The notes under the pieces are model-generated. The model saw nothing but the letters and a program-made list of their open reading frames with translations, did not search any database and was not told the DNA's origin. 64,000 nucleotides of DNA from Glaucostegus cemiculus (taxonomy: Eukaryota). The position numbers were made by a program, and so were the translations under genes. Of this stretch, positions 2,505 to 62,340 are shown in pieces. The stretch covers positions 1,550,001-1,614,000 of the forward strand of contig CDPCPM010000019.1 in assembly GCA_976551045.1 (NCBI GenBank), read 5' to 3'. Position 1 is the first letter of the stretch, and the number at the start of each line of letters is the position of its first letter.

Positions 2505-3135
2505 AAACACAAAGGACTGCAGATGCTGAAATCTGGAGCAACATAGAAAAGACACTGGAGGAACTCCACAGATCAGGCAGCATCCACGGAGGCAAATGAA
2601 CAGATGACATTTTGGACTGAGACCCTTCATCTGGACTGGAAGGATGAGATGGCCAGTATAAAAAGGTGGAGGGAAGGAGTGGGGCAAGAACAAGCTGTCC
2701 CTTTTTTCCCCTTTTTCCTCATCTCCTGATCCAACTGGCCCCCATCACCCCATGTCTTTCCCCTCCCCTACCCTCTCCATCTGTCCATTGCCCACACACT
2801 CCTCCCACCAGTTCCCCTCCCCACCTTCCTGCCTTTATTCCATGATCCATCATCCCCTCCTATCATCTTCATAACTTTGTCACTTCCACCGATCACCTCT
2901 CAGCTTCTGACATCATTCCTGTCCTCATCTGCCTATCACCCCCTCCCCAACCTAGATTCACGCATCACCTGCTAGTTCTTTCTCCACCCCTTCCCTCCAG
3001 CTTTTTATAGTGGTCATCTCCCCCTTTCTTCCAGTCCAGATGAAGGGTCTCAACCAGGAATGTCAACTGTCCATTTCCCTTCACAGATGCTTCCTAACCC
3101 ACCATATTCCTCCAGCACCTTTTGTGGTACTCCTT
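2505..3135. mobile_element. Two Penelope-type pseudo-LTRs in inverted orientation, with decayed hammerhead motifs
   Basis: About 2550-2690 (..gagacccttcatctggactgga..tataaaaaggtggagggaagg) is the reverse complement of about 2975-3135 (ccttccctccagctttttata..tccagtccagatgaagggtctc..). Confidence 0.75.
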
Positions 3136-14859: not shown

Positions 14860-17370
14860 TTTGTTAATTTTCTGGGAACTGGTCTTCAAAGGCAAGACTA
14901 GAATCTGTTGCACATCCCCAAATGCCTAGGAAAAGATGGTGGTGAACCACCTTGGTGAACTATTGCAGTCCTTCTGGTGAATCCTACAGTGCTGTTGGAT
15001 AGGGAGTTTGAGGATTTAAACCCAGTAAATATGAAGGATCAAAGCCAGGATAGCATGCAGCTTGGCAGGGAATTTGCAGGTGGGGGTGTTCCCATGTACC
15101 TGCTGCCCTTGTCCTTCATGGTGGTAAAGGTTGCAGATTTGGGAATTGCTGCTAGAGTACGACAGGCAAGCAACTTCAGTGTTTTCCATGGTACACACTG
15201 CAGTCATTGTGTGCCGGTGGTAGAGGGGGTGAATATTTATGGTAATTGATGGATTACCAATCAAGCAGCAAGCGAAAATTAAAAGATGCTAGAAAACTGA
15301 AATCAGAATAAAATTGTTCTTCAACCCGAAATATTAATTCTCCCTCTTTCCACAGATGCTGTCTGATCTGCTGAATGTTTCCAGCATTTTCTCTTTTTAT
15401 TTCATGCAGAGTGCTTTGCCCTTCTTCAATAGAATCAGACTTGCATTCTTTTTGGCAAAGGAGAGTATTTCATCCTGTTCTTGTGCCTTACAGATGTTGA
15501 AAAGGCCATTGGGTGCTAGGAGGCAAGTCATTTGCTGCAGGATACCCAGTCTCTGACTGACACACATAGCTATACTATTTCTGTGGTTGGTCAGGTTGAA
15601 TTTCTGGTTAACAGTGACCAGATGTTGACAGTGGAGCCTCGGCAATAGTAATGCCATTACACGTCCATGGTGAGTAGTTGATGGAGATGGTCAATGAATA
15701 GCACTTTTGCAATGCAAAGTTCACTTACCACTTATCAGCCTATGCCCAAATGCCACCTATACTTTCTGCATGCAGACATGGTATGCTTCATTTGCTGAGG
15801 AGTTACAAATGGAATTGAACATAATGCAATCCCCAGCAAAAAAAAACACATTGCTGACTTCACACTGGAAGGACAGCCATAGATAAAACAGCTGAAGATA
15901 GAACACTGCCTTGAAGAACTCCTGCAGTGATGCCCCATGGCTGGGAAGATCGACAACAACCACCCAGCTTCCTTCGTGTGAGATACGGCTCCAAACCAGT
16001 AAGTTATTTTCCCCCTTGATCCCATTAACTCCAGTTTTATCAGGACACCTTGATGCTGTTCTCCGTCAAATGCTACCTTAATATTAAGAGCAATCATTCT
16101 CTTCTCACCTCCAGTTCAGCTCCTTGGTCCACATTTGGACCAAGGCTGCAAAAAGGTCTGGAGCAAAGTGGCCCTGGTGAAACCTAAACTAGGCATCAGC
16201 AGGTCCGTTATTGGTTAATAACGGACACTTAATAGCACTGTTAATGATGGCGTCAGCCTTGTCATTAGCACTCACTTGCTGGGCTCTTCTGTGAATGGGG
16301 CTATTCTTGGAGTCGTCTCCTCCCATTACCAGTTTAATTTTCCTTCACAAGATGAGGCAGAACTGAGTTTCAACCTAATCCATTTGTTACATAATCAGTG
16401 GGCTGTCTACCACACACTGTTCAACATGCAGGTCGCCCTGTATTACAGCTTCATCAGTTAACATCTTGATTTTTAGGTAAGCTGCTACCTACTGCTCCTG
16501 GCATGCCTTTCTGCACTTCTAATTGAACCAAGATCAATACCCTGGCTTGACACTAAAGGCAGAGTGAGGTATGCCAGGACATGAGCTTACAGATTGTGGT
16601 GGTCAACATTTCTGCTGCCGGTCATCCACAGGGTCTCATAGATGCCCACCTTTGAGGTGCCAGAATTCTTCTGAGTCTATCCCATTAAGCACAACTGTAG
16701 TACCACCAACAGGATGAAGAGTGTCTGCAGTTTGAAGACCAGACTTTGTCTGTACCGGTCAATGCTACCAAAGCCATTATGAGCACTTACATCTGTCCCA
16801 AGTACAGTGATGAGGACATGGCCAAGTAGGTTTATTCCACATGTTGATTCACTCATTACCTGATACAGATCTAATCTATCAGCTATGTCCTTCAGGACTT
16901 GGCCAGCACTGTCAGCACTTGTATGTTACCAAGCCGATCATAGTCAGAGGTGTACTGCACAGAAATGTGCCCTTCAGTCTGTCGCACCCATAACAACCTT
17001 CTTACCCACCTACACTAAACCCCATTTGTCTGCACTTGAACTGCATCCTTCAATGCCTTGCTTATTTAAATGTCTGTCTAAATTCCTCTTAAGTGTAATA
17101 ATTGTATCTGATTTCCCCACCTCTTTAGACAGGAGGTGTGATGACTATTACCTCATGGTCATGAACACTGAATTCCCTCACTGTACACTTGATACTTTGT
17201 GCTTCTTCCAAGTACTGTTCAAAATGGATGAGCATTAATTCATCACTTTTGAGAGGATAACAGGGGGCCCTCAAGAAGAGAAGGTTTGTTTGTCCATATT
17301 TGTCATGATGTCAGGAAGCTTCACGAAGCCTGAAGTCAATGTTGAGGTCTCCAAGTATTCCTCCCACCAT
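14860..17370 (-). mobile_element. Old non-LTR LINE, clade not assigned, with nested pLTR (about 15270-15400) and CR1 tail (about 16940-17130)
   Basis: ALNIKVAFD..HQG.LIKL and VTVNQKFNLTNH.N...SQRLGIL....LL.P.GL..ICKAQ RT-type fragments. Confidence 0.7.
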
Positions 17371-21349: not shown

Positions 21350-22760
21350 CACAAAATCAAAAAAACTGCAGGTGCTGGAAATACTCAGCTGGTCGGATCA
21401 CATCTGTGGGAAAAGAAACAGAGCAACCATTTCAAGTCAAAGACCCTTTGTCACATCTGGAAAGGTGAGAAAAGAAGCTCATTAAGCTGCAGGAAGGGTG
21501 GGGGATGGGAAGGTCTCCGATAAGACAAGGATGAACATGGGGATAAGCCTTAAACAAGTTTATCTGGTTAATGAGCGAATAGAAGCAGTTAGAGAGTGAG
21601 AATATAGGCAGAATACAGGAGTTGCAAAATGCAGAGCAGGAAGACATGCCTTGCACTGGGCCTCAATGTAAGAGTACAGAAGGCAACAGACCAATAGGTC
21701 AGAATGGGAATGGGGTGGAAAATTAAATTGGCAGGCAACGGGTATTTCAGAATTGCTCCTGAAGACTGAACACAAGTCCTCTGCAAAGCAGTAATGCAAA
21801 CTGTGTTTGATTTCTCCAGTGTAGAGGAGACTACGTTTTGGACATCAAATGCAGTATATGAGATTGGAAGAAGTGCAAGTGAATTGCTGTTTCACCTGGA
21901 AAGTCTGTTTTGGTCCCTGGATGGTGGGAAGGGAAGAGATGAAAGGACAAATTTTACATCGCCTACTGTTGCAAGGGAAAGCGCTGCAAGAATTGGTTGG
22001 TGGGAATGGAAGCGTGGACCAGGGAGTCACAGAGGGAATGGTTCCTGCAAAAGGCTGAAGGGGAGGGGAGAGGAAGATGTGTCTAGGTGGTGGAATCTCT
22101 TTGAAGGTGGCAGAAAGAGAACAGAATAATCTGTTGAAAGTGGAGGCTGGTGGAGTAGATGGTGACGACCTGGGGAATTCTAACATTGTTCTGCAACAAA
22201 GAGGGAATGAGAACAGAGGCACAAGAAATGTCATAAAGTTGAAATAGCTGTGGGAGTCGATAGGCTTGTAATCTACATTAAAGCTAGCCTCTCTTTAGAT
22301 GTAGACAGAGAGATCCATAAAAGTACTGACCACATGAAGGTGAGAATAGGGTGGAAATTGGCAACAAAAGCCATGAAATTGTCAAGTTTTGCACAAGTAC
22401 AGGAAACAGCACCAATGCAGTCATCGATGTACCAGAAAAAGGAGTCGGAGTGGGCCTACATAGGACTGAAAACATAAACTGTTCCACACATCCCATAAAA
22501 AGATAGCCATAGCTTAGGCCCATGTTAATGCCCGTAGCTACACCTTTGGTCTGCAGAAAGCAAGTGGAGTTGAAGGAGAAATTGTTCAATGCAAGAAGTT
22601 CAGACATGCGACTCAGTTGGTGGCAAGGAACTGGTTGGGCCTCTGCTCAAGGAAGAAGCAGAGGGCTCTCAGACCATCCTGATGTGGAATGGAGGTGTAA
22701 AGGGATTGAACATCCATGGTAAAGACGAGCCTGTCTGGACCAGGGAGGTGGAAACTTCAG
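21350..22760 (-). mobile_element. Penelope-like element: RT C-terminus, GIY-YIG endonuclease and 3' pseudo-LTR
   Basis: LALNNFSFNST.FLQTKGVA.G..MG; YIDD (gtcatcgatgta at about 22420-22431); CNSRRCKICP...GPKQTFQVKQQFTCTSSNLIYCI. Confidence 0.9.
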
Positions 22761-25975: not shown

Positions 25976-27130
25976 TGTGGGGGAGGAGAGCATATCCACC
26001 AGGGGATGGATCAAAGGTAAGGAGAGAAAGAAAAAAGATAAAAGGGGTAGAAAAGCAGGCAGTCAACATTTCAGGTCAGGAAAAAGAGGGGCTAGGAAAG
26101 GGAAGAAGGGAAAGTATGGTGGGGGGGATGGGTTTTGGGGATTACTTAAAGTGAGAGAATTTGATGTTCATGCCGTTAGACTGTAAAGTTCCAAGACGGA
26201 AAATGAGGGGCTGTTCCTCTAGTTTGTGCTTGGAATTCTCCTGGCAGTGGAGGAGACAGGGGTCTGACATATCTGATAGTATGGGAGGGGGAGTTGAAGT
26301 GACTGGAAACGGGGAGATGCAAATCACAGTTACAAACAGAGCACAGGTGTTCTGTGAACACAGTCACCTTCTCTGTGTTTGGTCTCATCAATGTAGAGGA
26401 GGCCACACTTGGAACACCAAATGCAGTAGTTGATATTGAGACAGGTGCAGGTGAATCTCTGTCTCACCTGAAAGGACTGTTTGGGCCCCTGGATGGAGGT
26501 GGTGTAGGGGCAGGTGTTGCACCTATGGATGGGCAGTGGAAATTTCCCGGGGCGGGAGCACGATGGGTAGGAGTGAACTAGGGAGTTGTGGAGAGCGTGG
26601 TCCCTGCAAAAGGCAAAAGTTGTGGTTGATATGCTTGGTAGTGGGGTCCCGTTGGAGACAGCGTAAGTGGCGGTGAATGCTGTGTTGGATACGTAGGCTG
26701 GTAGGATGAGATGCGAGGACAAGGGGGACCCTATCCCTGTTGGGTCTGGGAGGGGTGGGGGTGAGAGCAGAAGTCTGAGAAATGGCAGAGGTATGGGTGC
26801 AAGCTCCCTCGACCACAGTCTAACCTCCCGTGACTTTTTTTTTTCCTTTCTTTCCCTACCTTTGACCCATCCCCCAGTGGATCTGCTCTCCCCCACACTT
26901 CCTATCACCATCTTTTACCTGCATCTACCTATCATCACCTTATGCCCACCCTGCCTCCCTTCTTTTGTCCACATATCACTGCTCTGCTTTTCCCTGCTAT
27001 ATATTGGGCTTCTCCTTTTCCTATCTTCAGTCCTGAAGAAGGGCCCTGACCTGAAACGTTGACTGCCTGCTTTTCTCCACAGATGTTCCCTGGCCTGCTG
27101 AGTTCCTCCAGCATCATCATGTTTTCCCTC
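25976..27130 (-). mobile_element. Penelope-like element (GIY-YIG region) with an inverted pseudo-LTR at its 5' side
   Basis: RCNTCPY..IQGPKQSFQVRQRFTCT..NINYCIWCSKCGLLYIDETK. About 25980-26037 and 26052-26080 are reverse complements of about 26836-26893 and 27046-27073. Confidence 0.9.
27028..27065 (+). ncRNA. Minimal type I hammerhead ribozyme motif in a Penelope pseudo-LTR
   Basis: CAGUC-CUGAAGA-AGG gcccuga CCU-GAAA-CG-UU-GACUG: 5-bp stem I, CUGANGA box, stem II, GAAA box, loop-less palindromic stem III (ACGU), cleavage triplet GUU. Confidence 0.75.
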
Positions 27131-59965: not shown

Positions 59966-60225
59966 ATTTAGCACCAGTGACCCGGGTTCAATTCCAACCA
60001 CTGTCTGCAAGGAGTTTGTACGTTCTCCCCATGTCGGTGCGAGTTTCCTCCAGGTGCTCCGGTTTCCTCCCACATTCCAAAGATGTACAGGTTAGGAAGT
60101 TATGGGCATGCTAATGTTGGCGCTGGAAGCATGGTGACATTTGTGGGCTGCCCCCAGAACATTCTACACAAAGATGCATTTCACCATGTGTTTTGATGCA
60201 CATGTGACTAATAAAGATATCTTAG
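59965..60225 (+). mobile_element. V-SINE with Rex1-like tail
   Basis: B-box gacccgggttcaattcc; V core ggagtttgtacgttctcccc..tttcctccaggtgctccggtttcctcccacattccaaaga; tail catgtgactaataaagatatctt. Confidence 0.9.
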
Positions 60226-60249: not shown

Positions 60250-62085
60250 GATATTTTAAATCTTTTGTCACAAGGGCAGATAACTGTAGCATTTTGTAAA
60301 GCATTGCAAGCACATTGCAATCAACCTAAAAGTGAAACAATTGACCATTAGGAATAAAGGGCAGATTAAATCCTTTGACTCTTTCTCAATGGAACAAAAT
60401 CATCAGTAGATAATTGCAATTTTACAGCTTTGAATGACTAATCAATCAAAAATTAGATTATTTGTGGAATCCAGGAGTCCAACCAGTGGCAAGGAGCATC
60501 ATGCAAGTTACAATTAAACTTAGGAAAGTGTACACAAGTTTGCAGAACTAGAAAAAAAGTATTTGATGGGCAGCAGAAAGAAGCACATGAAACGTGAAAA
60601 TGCAAAAGAGGAAAAGTATGGCCAAGATTAGTTAAATGCTTCAAGCATTGCAGAAAGCAACACAAGTGCTGAAAATGAATGAAAAGTAACACACACAAAG
60701 CACTGGAGGAACTCAAAAGGCCAGGCAGCATCTATGGAGGGAAATGAACAGGCAACATTTCGGGCCAAGACCCTTCATCAAGATACTGCTGAAAATGAAT
60801 GCTCCCTAAATGGGGAAGCACATCCACAATGGGGATTGGAACATAATTTGTATGAAAAAAAACAGAGAACAATAAATATCCACTGAGTGGACAAGGTGAA
60901 CTACACAGGAGCAGAGGCAGGAGCAGATTCAGATTACCAGATGAAAACACTGCACTTGGTAATAAGCAAGGCCAATTCTGTGGAAGAAATAGCCACTAGA
61001 TGCATCTATACAACATACTGGTGCAAAAGTAACTAATGAAATTCAACCTGACTCCGGTGCATGATGTAAAGTCGTCCCAAAAGAAGCCATCAATTTCAAG
61101 TCAGTGATGCTGATACTACTGATCGTGAGCTGCAGATGCACCAACAGAATATGCTGAAACTTGCTGGAGATGTTCTCTGATAGTGGTGGAAGCAAACATC
61201 AAGGCATGATATGGATATCATCATGGTAAACCAGAAAGATCTCAAACCTGGACTTGGAAGTAGTATAGCACAGTAGGTGGGACAAATAAAAGGTACACTG
61301 CATAAGTATCATAAAGATAACTTCAACACAAGAACTCATTTCAGCTTTGCAATTCTATATGCTGATACCTAGCAGGGACCAGGGTGACTAAAAGTCAAAT
61401 GCTATTTATCCTAGATGAGTGTGGTATTCACCAAGGTGTCATCCAATGGCTCTCAAGCAGGAAGTCAAATCAGAGATCACATTACTATGAGTAGCTTCCA
61501 AACAGAGGCAATTGGTCAATTAATCCCAAGCCATAAAAAGAATCGCAATCACTCCTTGGATCTGGGAATGATTGACTGCCTTCTTAGATCAAGAGAAAGC
61601 ATTTGTTGTATAGGGACAGATGGGGAGATCAGGGACACTGTACAGAAACAAACCCTGCTGATCTCTAGAAATAATCAAAAGAACTCATTTCCATCAGGTT
61701 TCAGGGAGATCTGATCAAAAAGGGGAAAACCAAAAAAAATCATCGATCTGGTAATAATTAATCATATCAAATTTCTGAGAGGTAGACTCCTCAGAAAAAC
61801 AACCTACTCCTTGATGTGAATTTGCAAGCTCAAAGGATAATTTGCCACATATGATATCTCAGATAGATAATAAACCACAGTTCACAACAGACAACTTTAT
61901 GATCACGAGGCAATATCACCTCATTTTTCACAGAGCAACAGAAACACAGAATAAAATAATGGTTGCTAAGCAAATGGTAAAACTACCCAACTTGTCACAC
62001 CCTTTCCTGAGCACCCTACAATTCTGTAACACCCCAAACCAAGGGTTGGAGAATAGCCATGGGCAGAGACATATCAACTTACAAC
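60250..62085 (+). mobile_element. Decayed Ty3/Gypsy internal region (gag, protease, integrase)
   Basis: gag-like ALQAHCNQPKSETI, IICGIQ and LNLGKCTQVCRT; protease QPDSGA*CKVVP (DSG at 61050-61058); integrase DNKPQFT...PFLS.L.F.NTP.QGL..S.GQR. Confidence 0.75.
60682..60786 (-). mobile_element. 105-bp Penelope pseudo-LTR mini-insert with hammerhead motif and 15-bp TSD
   Basis: Flanked by tgctgaaaatgaatg at 60667-60681 and 60787-60801. Minus strand reads gtatct-tgatga-aggg tcttgg ccc-gaaa-tgtt-gcctg. Confidence 0.85.
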
Positions 62086-62164: not shown

Positions 62165-62340
62165 CAACAGCAAAAAACAAACTGTTGGAGGAATAGAGTG
62201 GGTCAGACAGCACCTGTAGAGTGAAATAGACAGTTGACATTTTGGATTGCGACCCTTCACCTGCACTGAAGGAGTAAAGGGGAGACAGCAAGTATAAAGA
62301 GGTGAGGGGAAGAGGTGGAGCAAGAGCTAGCAAGTGGTAG
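62165..62340 (-). mobile_element. Penelope pseudo-LTR fragment with decayed hammerhead
   Basis: cagttgacattttggattgcgacccttcacctgcactga; homologous to about 2550-2690. Confidence 0.7.

What the first reader, a model, noticed from the sequence alone, without database searches (positions are those of the whole stretch)
60667..60801. 105-bp hammerhead-bearing mini-retroelement with a perfect 15-bp target-site duplication
Seen: tgctgaaaatgaatg occurs exactly at 60667-60681 and 60787-60801, bracketing a 105-bp insert that interrupts a Gypsy gag remnant. On the minus strand the insert starts right at a hammerhead motif (UUGAUGA-A-GGG ucuugg CCC-GAAA-UGUU; C3>U and a CpG-type change in stem III) and ends in a GT/T-rich tail. 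Known: Penelope-like elements carry minimal hammerheads in their pseudo-LTRs, and non-autonomous ribozyme-containing retroelements (retrozymes) exist. Inference: this tiny RNA was copied and inserted as a unit, so it may represent a SINE-like, ribozyme-bearing family mobilised by Penelope RT/GIY-YIG.
Basis: partly seen in the sequence, partly recalled or inferred. Interest (0 to 1): 0.7.

Follow-up and report, generated by a model that had tools for sequence, protein, structure and literature searches.

The report
Run-off stub of Penelope retrotransposon
This 105-base insert is a real, old insertion of the ribozyme-bearing end piece of a very common Penelope-type jumping gene, not a separate mobile family, and its fixed start likely marks the front end of that gene's RNA, a clue to how this little-understood class copies itself.

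Summary
In detail: the 15-bp duplication is exact, paralogues of the host repeat show the empty site, and related species carry the same insertion. The interpretation mostly does not. The insert is the terminal piece (pLTR) of an abundant Neptune-type Penelope-like element whose long copies run into an RT/GIY-YIG ORF. Short copies form no lineage of their own, and their ends avoid the ribozyme cut site; this copy's hammerhead is broken. But 5' ends are not random: 56 of 158 arms stop within 10 nt at the start of hammerhead stem I (about ten times background). Arms copied from the front of a transcript stop there more often (10 of 14; a second set only 2 of 7), often behind an extra G. Many insertions are two head-to-head arms, one with and one without the 35-nt tail, between roughly 14-bp duplications. 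Best reading: reverse transcription starts internally near base 100 and runs off the RNA's 5' end; here the partner arm is missing. The scan noted this pattern before in other genomes and in this one. Known class, with a testable mechanistic clue.

The parts
60667..60681 (.). TSD copy at the element's 3' end
   Evidence: single copy in paralogues
60787..60801 (.). TSD copy at the element's 5' end; organisms C and E differ by one base (60794)
60682..60786 (-). 105-nt stub of a Neptune-type PLE pLTR (element positions 1-105; position 1 = 60786), tail-less class
60783..60786 (-). 5' junction inside the +1..+6 stop zone: either 3 extra bases then position 4, or a start at +1/+2 with 2-nt microhomology and a 2-nt insertion
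   Evidence: sequence against family alignment
60749..60786 (-). decayed minimal type I hammerhead: core 60781-60775 (C3>U), stem II 60773-60762, GAAA 60761-60758, predicted cut between 60754 and 60753, stem I broken
   Evidence: motif definition PMC4209133
60682..60700 (-). GT-rich 3' end at the proximal end class (about position 100-102), inferred proximal RT start; last 3 T are not in the family sequence
   Evidence: 3'-end histogram; analogy to PMC11167929
60300..60666 (+). host: old multi-copy repeat, gag-like remnant of an LTR retrotransposon (left part)
60802..61350 (+). host repeat, right part, colinear with the left part in paralogues

Best explanation
The insert is the first ~100 bases of a Neptune-type Penelope-like element's pLTR, pasted between a 15-bp target duplication, and it is likely a run-off cDNA: reverse transcription likely began at an internal site near base 100 and stopped at the likely capped 5' end of the element's RNA, just in front of the hammerhead. 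Shown: identity of the parent element; positions 1-136 continue into the 5' UTR and an ORF start about 35 nt further on in full-length copies; two 3'-end classes (~100 and ~136); a 5' stop zone at -3..+6; two-armed head-to-head insertions with one tailed and one tail-less arm and TSDs centred on 14 bp; no separate lineage. Inferred: the endonuclease nicks both strands about 14-15 nt apart, one nick primes at the ~100 site and the other at the ~136 site; the stop zone is the transcription start (TCCA+1GT, initiator-like by recall); in this copy the tailed partner arm was not made or shrank to 0-3 nt. The ribozyme is a passenger: its cut site (33/34) did not define either end.
For: Parent: 29 best genomic hits run 0 to 556 nt upstream into ORF remnants; a 483-aa frame of a related copy shows RT motifs, a CX2-5CxxC linker and GIY-YIG motifs, with shark/ray homologues carrying RVT_1 and GIY-YIG. 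Stop zone: 56 of 158 arms at risk end at -3..+6; non-inverted only 30 of 117 against 15 of 87 over the next 50 nt, binomial p 4e-12; in a second list 18 of 100 end at -3..+4 (hand count). Front-of-transcript test: of 46 arms that carry 5' UTR sequence beyond the tail, 14 reach position 6 and 10 of them stop at +1..+6 (9 of 13 after removing a duplicated locus; Fisher p 0.011 and 0.033 against 56/158). G before A2 in 17 of 33, 9.1 expected, p 0.003. Twin arms: 40 of 44 pairs have one tailed and one tail-less arm, 23 of 44 have a TSD, 20 of 23 being 13-16 bp; vestigial partner arms lie between TSD and main arm in L214 and L164. Single tail-less stem-I copies have TSDs in 5 of 19 (swapped-flank control 5 of 500). 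Internal RT starts giving the tail, and cutting and extension of both strands, were shown in vitro for a Poseidon element (PMC11167929).
Against: ORF-linked copies stop at +1/+2 in only 2 of 7; pooled with the front set 11 of 20, p 0.14 against 56/158 (0.015 against non-inverted 30/117). Ends spread over about 10 nt rather than one base. The extra-G sample is enriched for +2 ends by the pattern, some G come from microhomology with an inverted arm, there is no G excess at +1 (0 of 12), +3 (5 of 12) or +5 (0 of 7), and among the first 100 matches G is not the commonest letter. With a stricter rule only 4 of 18 single tail-less copies show a TSD. This copy's own junction shows no clean G-A2 start. 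No RNA evidence was obtained. The lineage test has limited power because most variation is CpG decay; 1 of 18 columns differed (position 54, p 0.013 uncorrected).
Confidence: 0.6

Rival explanations
1. Structure-driven truncation hot spot: after copying the hammerhead the cDNA end (complement of stem I 5' arm) folds back or anneals to the complement of the 3' arm, or the RT stalls on entering the pyrimidine tract, so long templates give short products.
For: The stop zone coincides with the stem I 5' arm; a few inverted junctions join +1..+3 to about 39-42 exactly as fold-back predicts (L009, L140, L237, L203); self-priming was proposed for Penelope palindromes (PMC3846280, passages).
Against: Partner-arm junctions are scattered from about 0 to 100 and pairs are one tailed plus one tail-less arm, which fits two priming events better than one fold-back; the stop fraction is higher for front-derived arms, which structure alone does not predict; extra G before A2.
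Confidence: 0.15
2. A short pLTR-only RNA (about +2 to beyond 136), transcribed from many solo pLTRs, is mobilised in trans by the Neptune protein: a diffuse SINE-like parasite without a single master.
For: Discrete ~100 and ~135 nt size classes with TSDs; pLTR sequence suffices in trans in rotifers (PMC3846280, passages); retrozymes derive from pLTRs (bioRxiv 10.64898/2026.07.22.740005, parts 1-2).
Against: No clade: nearest-neighbour same-class fraction 0.22 against 0.21 shuffled, p 0.43; between-minus-within p 0.27; the three nearest relatives of this copy are long copies; the same start is seen in copies that continue into the 5' UTR and ORF.
Confidence: 0.12
3. The zone is a splice acceptor (pyrimidine tract + CAG ending at +3); spliced RNA was copied and the sequence upstream of +4 is another exon.
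For: Acceptor-like sequence directly upstream; position 4 was the single commonest end in the 221-arm set (12, against 10 at +2); the D. virilis intron ends at the 5' end of helix I (PMC4209133); exon ends in AG would mimic +2 starts.
Against: No shared upstream exon among 34 stem-I single copies; several have the TSD within 0-9 nt of the start.
Confidence: 0.1
4. A retrozyme: unit length is set by hammerhead self-cleavage and circular RNA.
For: Hammerhead motif present; non-LTR retrozymes exist in a cartilaginous fish (bioRxiv 10.64898/2026.07.22.740005).
Against: Cleavage would start the RNA at position 34, dropping the core; only 5 of 140 ends lie at 32-36; copies are not tandem monomers; the motif is the minimal, not the canonical type.
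Confidence: 0.02

Closest known systems
Neptune-clade EN+ Penelope-like elements and their insertion architecture (PMC8557442, passages; PMC3846280, passages)
   Same: RT + C-terminal GIY-YIG, CX2-5CxxC linker, pLTR with hammerhead, frequent 5' truncation, inverted adjacent pLTR, 30-40 nt tail at one end only, TSDs
   Different: Those passages give TSDs of 8-10 bp or none and do not describe a fixed 5' stop in front of the hammerhead; here TSDs centre on 14 bp and a quarter to a third of arms stop in a 10-nt zone
Poseidon element PAc of the green anole (PMC11167929, parts 1-2 of 4)
   Same: two internal RT start sites defining the tail; both target strands cut and extended; hammerhead cleavage not needed; product length set by the template's 5' end
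   Different: other clade; ORF starts inside the hammerhead in PAc but about 170 nt after stem I here; in vitro, no TSD or RNA-start data
Minimal hammerheads (min-HHR) of metazoan PLEs (PMC4209133, parts 1-2 of 4)
   Same: 5-bp helix I, bulged base before helix II, G10.1-C11.1, palindromic 2-nt helix III; mostly single motifs from truncated PLEs
   Different: this copy is broken (C3>U without G8>A, stem I lost)
Metazoan non-LTR retrozymes (PMC7229834, passages; bioRxiv 10.64898/2026.07.22.740005, parts 1-2 of 5)
   Same: non-coding, hammerhead-bearing, related to pLTRs
   Different: retrozymes are tandem 150-450 bp monomers with canonical type I hammerheads and circular RNA; this is a dispersed stub whose ends ignore the cut site

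Membership tests
Neptune-type EN+ PLE (parent element) | single ORF with RT followed by GIY-YIG endonuclease | tested here: met
   motifs in frames of L272-L274, L010; homologues with RVT_1 and GIY-YIG; decayed copies themselves gave no Pfam/NCBIfam hit
Neptune-type EN+ PLE (parent element) | CX2-5CxxC zinc-finger-like linker before the endonuclease (Neptune and Nematis) | tested here: met
   seen in the L272 frame; feature from PMC8557442
Neptune-type EN+ PLE (parent element) | RT phylogeny separating Neptune from Nematis | not tested
   no tree built; the label Neptune rests on the linker and on recalled motif likeness
Neptune-type EN+ PLE (parent element) | pLTR at both ends, inverted arm, tail at one end | tested here: met
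PLE minimal hammerhead | core CUGANGA...GAAA...UH with helices I and II (family) | tested here: met
   majority letters in 97 long copies, 29 with intact core, 1 fully intact; L024 folds stems I and II
PLE minimal hammerhead | same features in this copy | tested here: not met
   C3>U (also in 8 of 97 long copies, sporadic), stem I does not form
PLE minimal hammerhead | self-cleavage | not testable with these tools
   needs in vitro assay
Non-LTR retrozyme | tandem monomers, each with a hammerhead | tested here: not met
   no tandem monomer arrays among the arms examined; the sense-upstream matches are split long copies or short duplications
Non-LTR retrozyme | unit ends set by the cleavage site | tested here: not met
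   5 of 140 ends at 32-36
Non-LTR retrozyme | circular RNA | not testable with these tools
   no RNA run available
SINE-like non-autonomous family | own lineage with diagnostic changes | tested here: not met
   (34 short single, 97 long, 27 short inverted); limited power
SINE-like non-autonomous family | fixed 5' end and size | tested here: inconclusive
   10-nt zone, shared with long and ORF-linked copies
SINE-like non-autonomous family | own promoter and short transcript | not testable with these tools
   no RNA data

The most novel reading that the evidence does not exclude
Neptune elements start their capped RNA at an initiator directly in front of the hammerhead and insert by twin priming from a 14-15 nt staggered cut, one nick at each of two internal RT start sites; the resulting ~100-nt run-off stubs keep promoter start, ribozyme and RT start site, and can themselves be transcribed and re-mobilised, forming a masterless SINE-like swarm and a seedbed for retrozymes.
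Probability: 0.15. Interest if true: 0.65.

Novelty: new member of a known kind. Interest (0 to 1): 0.35.

Why it matters
The single insert is inert debris. The population matters modestly: steps after first-strand priming in Penelope-like retrotransposition are still unvalidated (PMC11167929), and these fossils give sharp, testable numbers: RNA start near +2, two RT starts used one per strand, a 14-15 nt stagger, no role for the ribozyme cut. It also warns that hammerhead-bearing stubs with TSDs in shark and ray genomes should not be annotated as SINEs or retrozymes.

Tried and rejected
Rfam scan: no hammerhead hit. Folding of the insert: no more stable than shuffles. Pfam, NCBIfam and PDB sequence searches on decayed PLE frames: nothing; the protein atlas gave no answer. 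Host gag fragment: no homologue among longer proteins, no Pfam hit for window flanks read through with X. Empty site in relatives: none among the joints shown (one search shows 15 of 127 joints; one search lists 2); contigs of organisms B, C, D, E cross the junctions with the insert present. No RNA holder listed, so expression, RNA ends and cleavage were not examined. Rejected: chance repeat; pre-existing duplicate in the host; ends made by ribozyme cleavage; C3>U as a family covariant (8 of 97); a shared spliced first exon. My first impression that tailed single arms never have TSDs and that upstream-truncated copies lack them weakened with a wider search (2 of 17 tail-less and 1 of 16 tailed upstream copies have one).

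Full report
Numbering: element position 1 is window 60786 on the minus strand, the first base of the hammerhead stem I 5' arm in the family; the predicted ribozyme cut is between 33 and 34.

Observation. The 15-mer is exact at both places, not extendable, and the only exact 15-mer direct repeat at 60-400 nt spacing in the window. Both flanks belong to one old repeat. In paralogue L049 the left flank ends and the right flank begins on the same 15 bases, L068 behaves alike, and L053 aligns with one 119-nt gap, so the duplication arose on insertion. Contigs of organisms B, C, D and E cross the junctions with the insert in place, roughly 5-12% different from the window, and C and E differ by one base in the right copy: the insertion is old and shared, and its perfect TSD here is partly luck. 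The host looks like the gag region of an LTR retrotransposon (tblastn E 7e-5; relatives hit zf-CCHC, Integrase_H2C2 and, below cut-off, Retrotrans_gag); 'Gypsy' is a recalled likeness, not tested.

What the insert is. It matches a very abundant repeat at 87-91%; one 43-mer occurs 1815 times exactly, and a profile found 43 hits in 183 kb of window and unrelated loci (related subfamilies and paired arms included), which extrapolates to the order of 100,000 pieces (inference). The 29 best hits run 0-556 nt further upstream into ORF remnants. A 483-aa frame of a related copy has RT motifs, a CX2-5CxxC linker and GIY-YIG motifs; its best homologues are from sharks and rays and the set carries RVT_1 and GIY-YIG. 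By PMC8557442 (passages) that linker marks Neptune or Nematis; no tree was built. In full-length copies positions 1-136 continue into a 5' UTR and an ORF start about 35 nt later. The family motif is the minimal hammerhead of PMC4209133; this copy has C3>U, seen sporadically in 8 of 97 long copies, and cannot form stem I.

Ends. I sampled 221 arms by an anchor at positions 45-85, from four exact patterns (90 of the first 100 places of one, 30 each of three others) plus incidental near matches; arms of one insertion can both be counted. 3' ends fall in two classes, about 94-105 and 134-136, the tail signature that PMC11167929 (parts 1-2 of 4) traced to two internal RT start sites. 5' ends: 56 of 158 arms at risk stop at -3..+6, about 0.04 per nt against about 0.004 upstream; using non-inverted arms only, 30 of 117 against 15 of 87 in the next 50 nt, p 4e-12; only 5 of 140 end at 32-36. 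A second list of 100 gave 18 ends at -3..+4 and 4 near -6 by hand count, a lower share. This copy belongs to the stem-I-start, tail-less class, which has TSDs in 5 of 19 (control 5 of 500), or 4 of 18 by a stricter rule (control 1 of 300).

Family or recurrent product. The 34 single short copies are as far from each other as from 97 long ones (p 0.27), are not each other's nearest neighbours (0.22 against 0.21, p 0.43), carry both states of every variable column, and this copy's three nearest relatives are long copies; 1 of 18 columns differed at p 0.013 uncorrected. Power is limited by CpG decay. The same stop zone is used by arms of inverted pairs. Of 44 pairs, 40 join a tailed and a tail-less arm and 23 have a TSD, 11 of them 14 bp and 20 of them 13-16 bp; some 'single' copies keep a vestigial partner arm next to the TSD. 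This fits two nicks about 14 nt apart, each priming at one of the two start sites (inference; PAc cuts and extends both strands in vitro).

Why the stop zone. If it is the RNA's 5' end, arms copied from the front pLTR should stop there more often. All 46 places with 5' UTR sequence beyond the tail were examined: 14 reach position 6 and 10 stop at +1..+6, 9 of 13 without a duplicated locus, p 0.011 and 0.033 against 56/158. Against this, ORF-linked copies gave 2 of 7, and pooled 11 of 20 gives p 0.14 (0.015 against non-inverted arms). A cap would leave an extra G: 17 of 33 ends at +2 have G before them, 9.1 expected, p 0.003, with no excess at +1, +3 or +5; this sample is enriched for +2 ends and microhomology explains some. 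The run-off idea was in my notes before the look-up; the cap test was prompted by earlier scan notes, which are leads, not support. Fold-back at stem I and a splice acceptor at +3/+4 (the D. virilis intron ends at helix I, PMC4209133; promoter and intron lie in the pLTR, PMC2377424 passages) remain possible.

Comparison and novelty. Truncated pLTRs, inverted arms, the one-sided tail, TSDs and minimal hammerheads are all described (PMC8557442, PMC3846280 passages). Retrozymes are tandem, canonical-hammerhead repeats (PMC7229834 passages; bioRxiv 10.64898/2026.07.22.740005 parts 1-2 of 5) and do not fit. Six literature searches listed no paper whose title or abstract describes a fixed stop before stem I or 14-bp TSDs in cartilaginous-fish PLEs; the library lacks most subscription journals, Repbase and Dfam, and I read no supplements, where TSD or end data could lie. 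The scan has noted the same pattern in other genomes and in this one.

Verdict. Real insertion, known class, dead ribozyme, not a new family; the population is a useful fossil record of Penelope-like insertion. Interest 0.35.

Noticed in passing
window 2506-3126: Two-armed head-to-head insertion of a related PLE subfamily, one arm with the tail and one without, between a decayed ~14-bp duplication (10-mer with 1 mismatch scored).
   Followed up: partly
window 62177-62339 (-), 27005-27114 (+), 21371-21468 (-), 15323-15391 (+), 26082-26275 (-): Further decayed PLE pieces found by the profile; no clear TSD in the four checked.
   Followed up: partly
window about 59970-60224: Very high-copy short repeat ending in an AT-rich end, deeply covered in all laid runs; looks like a tRNA-type SINE by recall.
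   Followed up: no
L315, L143, L314, L402, L403 (5' junctions): A few bases of the hammerhead core are repeated just in front of the start, as if the RT jumped back onto the template after reaching its end.
   Followed up: partly
L395-L439: Arms whose 3' ends lie 20-340 nt past the tail, with clusters near +64 and +130-165, suggesting further RT start sites inside the 5' UTR or ORF start.
   Followed up: no
element position 54: The G54 subfamily stops at stem I less often (5 of 29) than the A54 one (56 of 128); uncorrected and on a column chosen by my patterns.
   Followed up: partly
one search hits P0002, P0007: Ray gene models named as host genes (divergent protein kinase domain 1C, chitinase domain-containing 1) contain long PLE ORF pieces: likely annotation artefacts or exonisation.
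   Followed up: no
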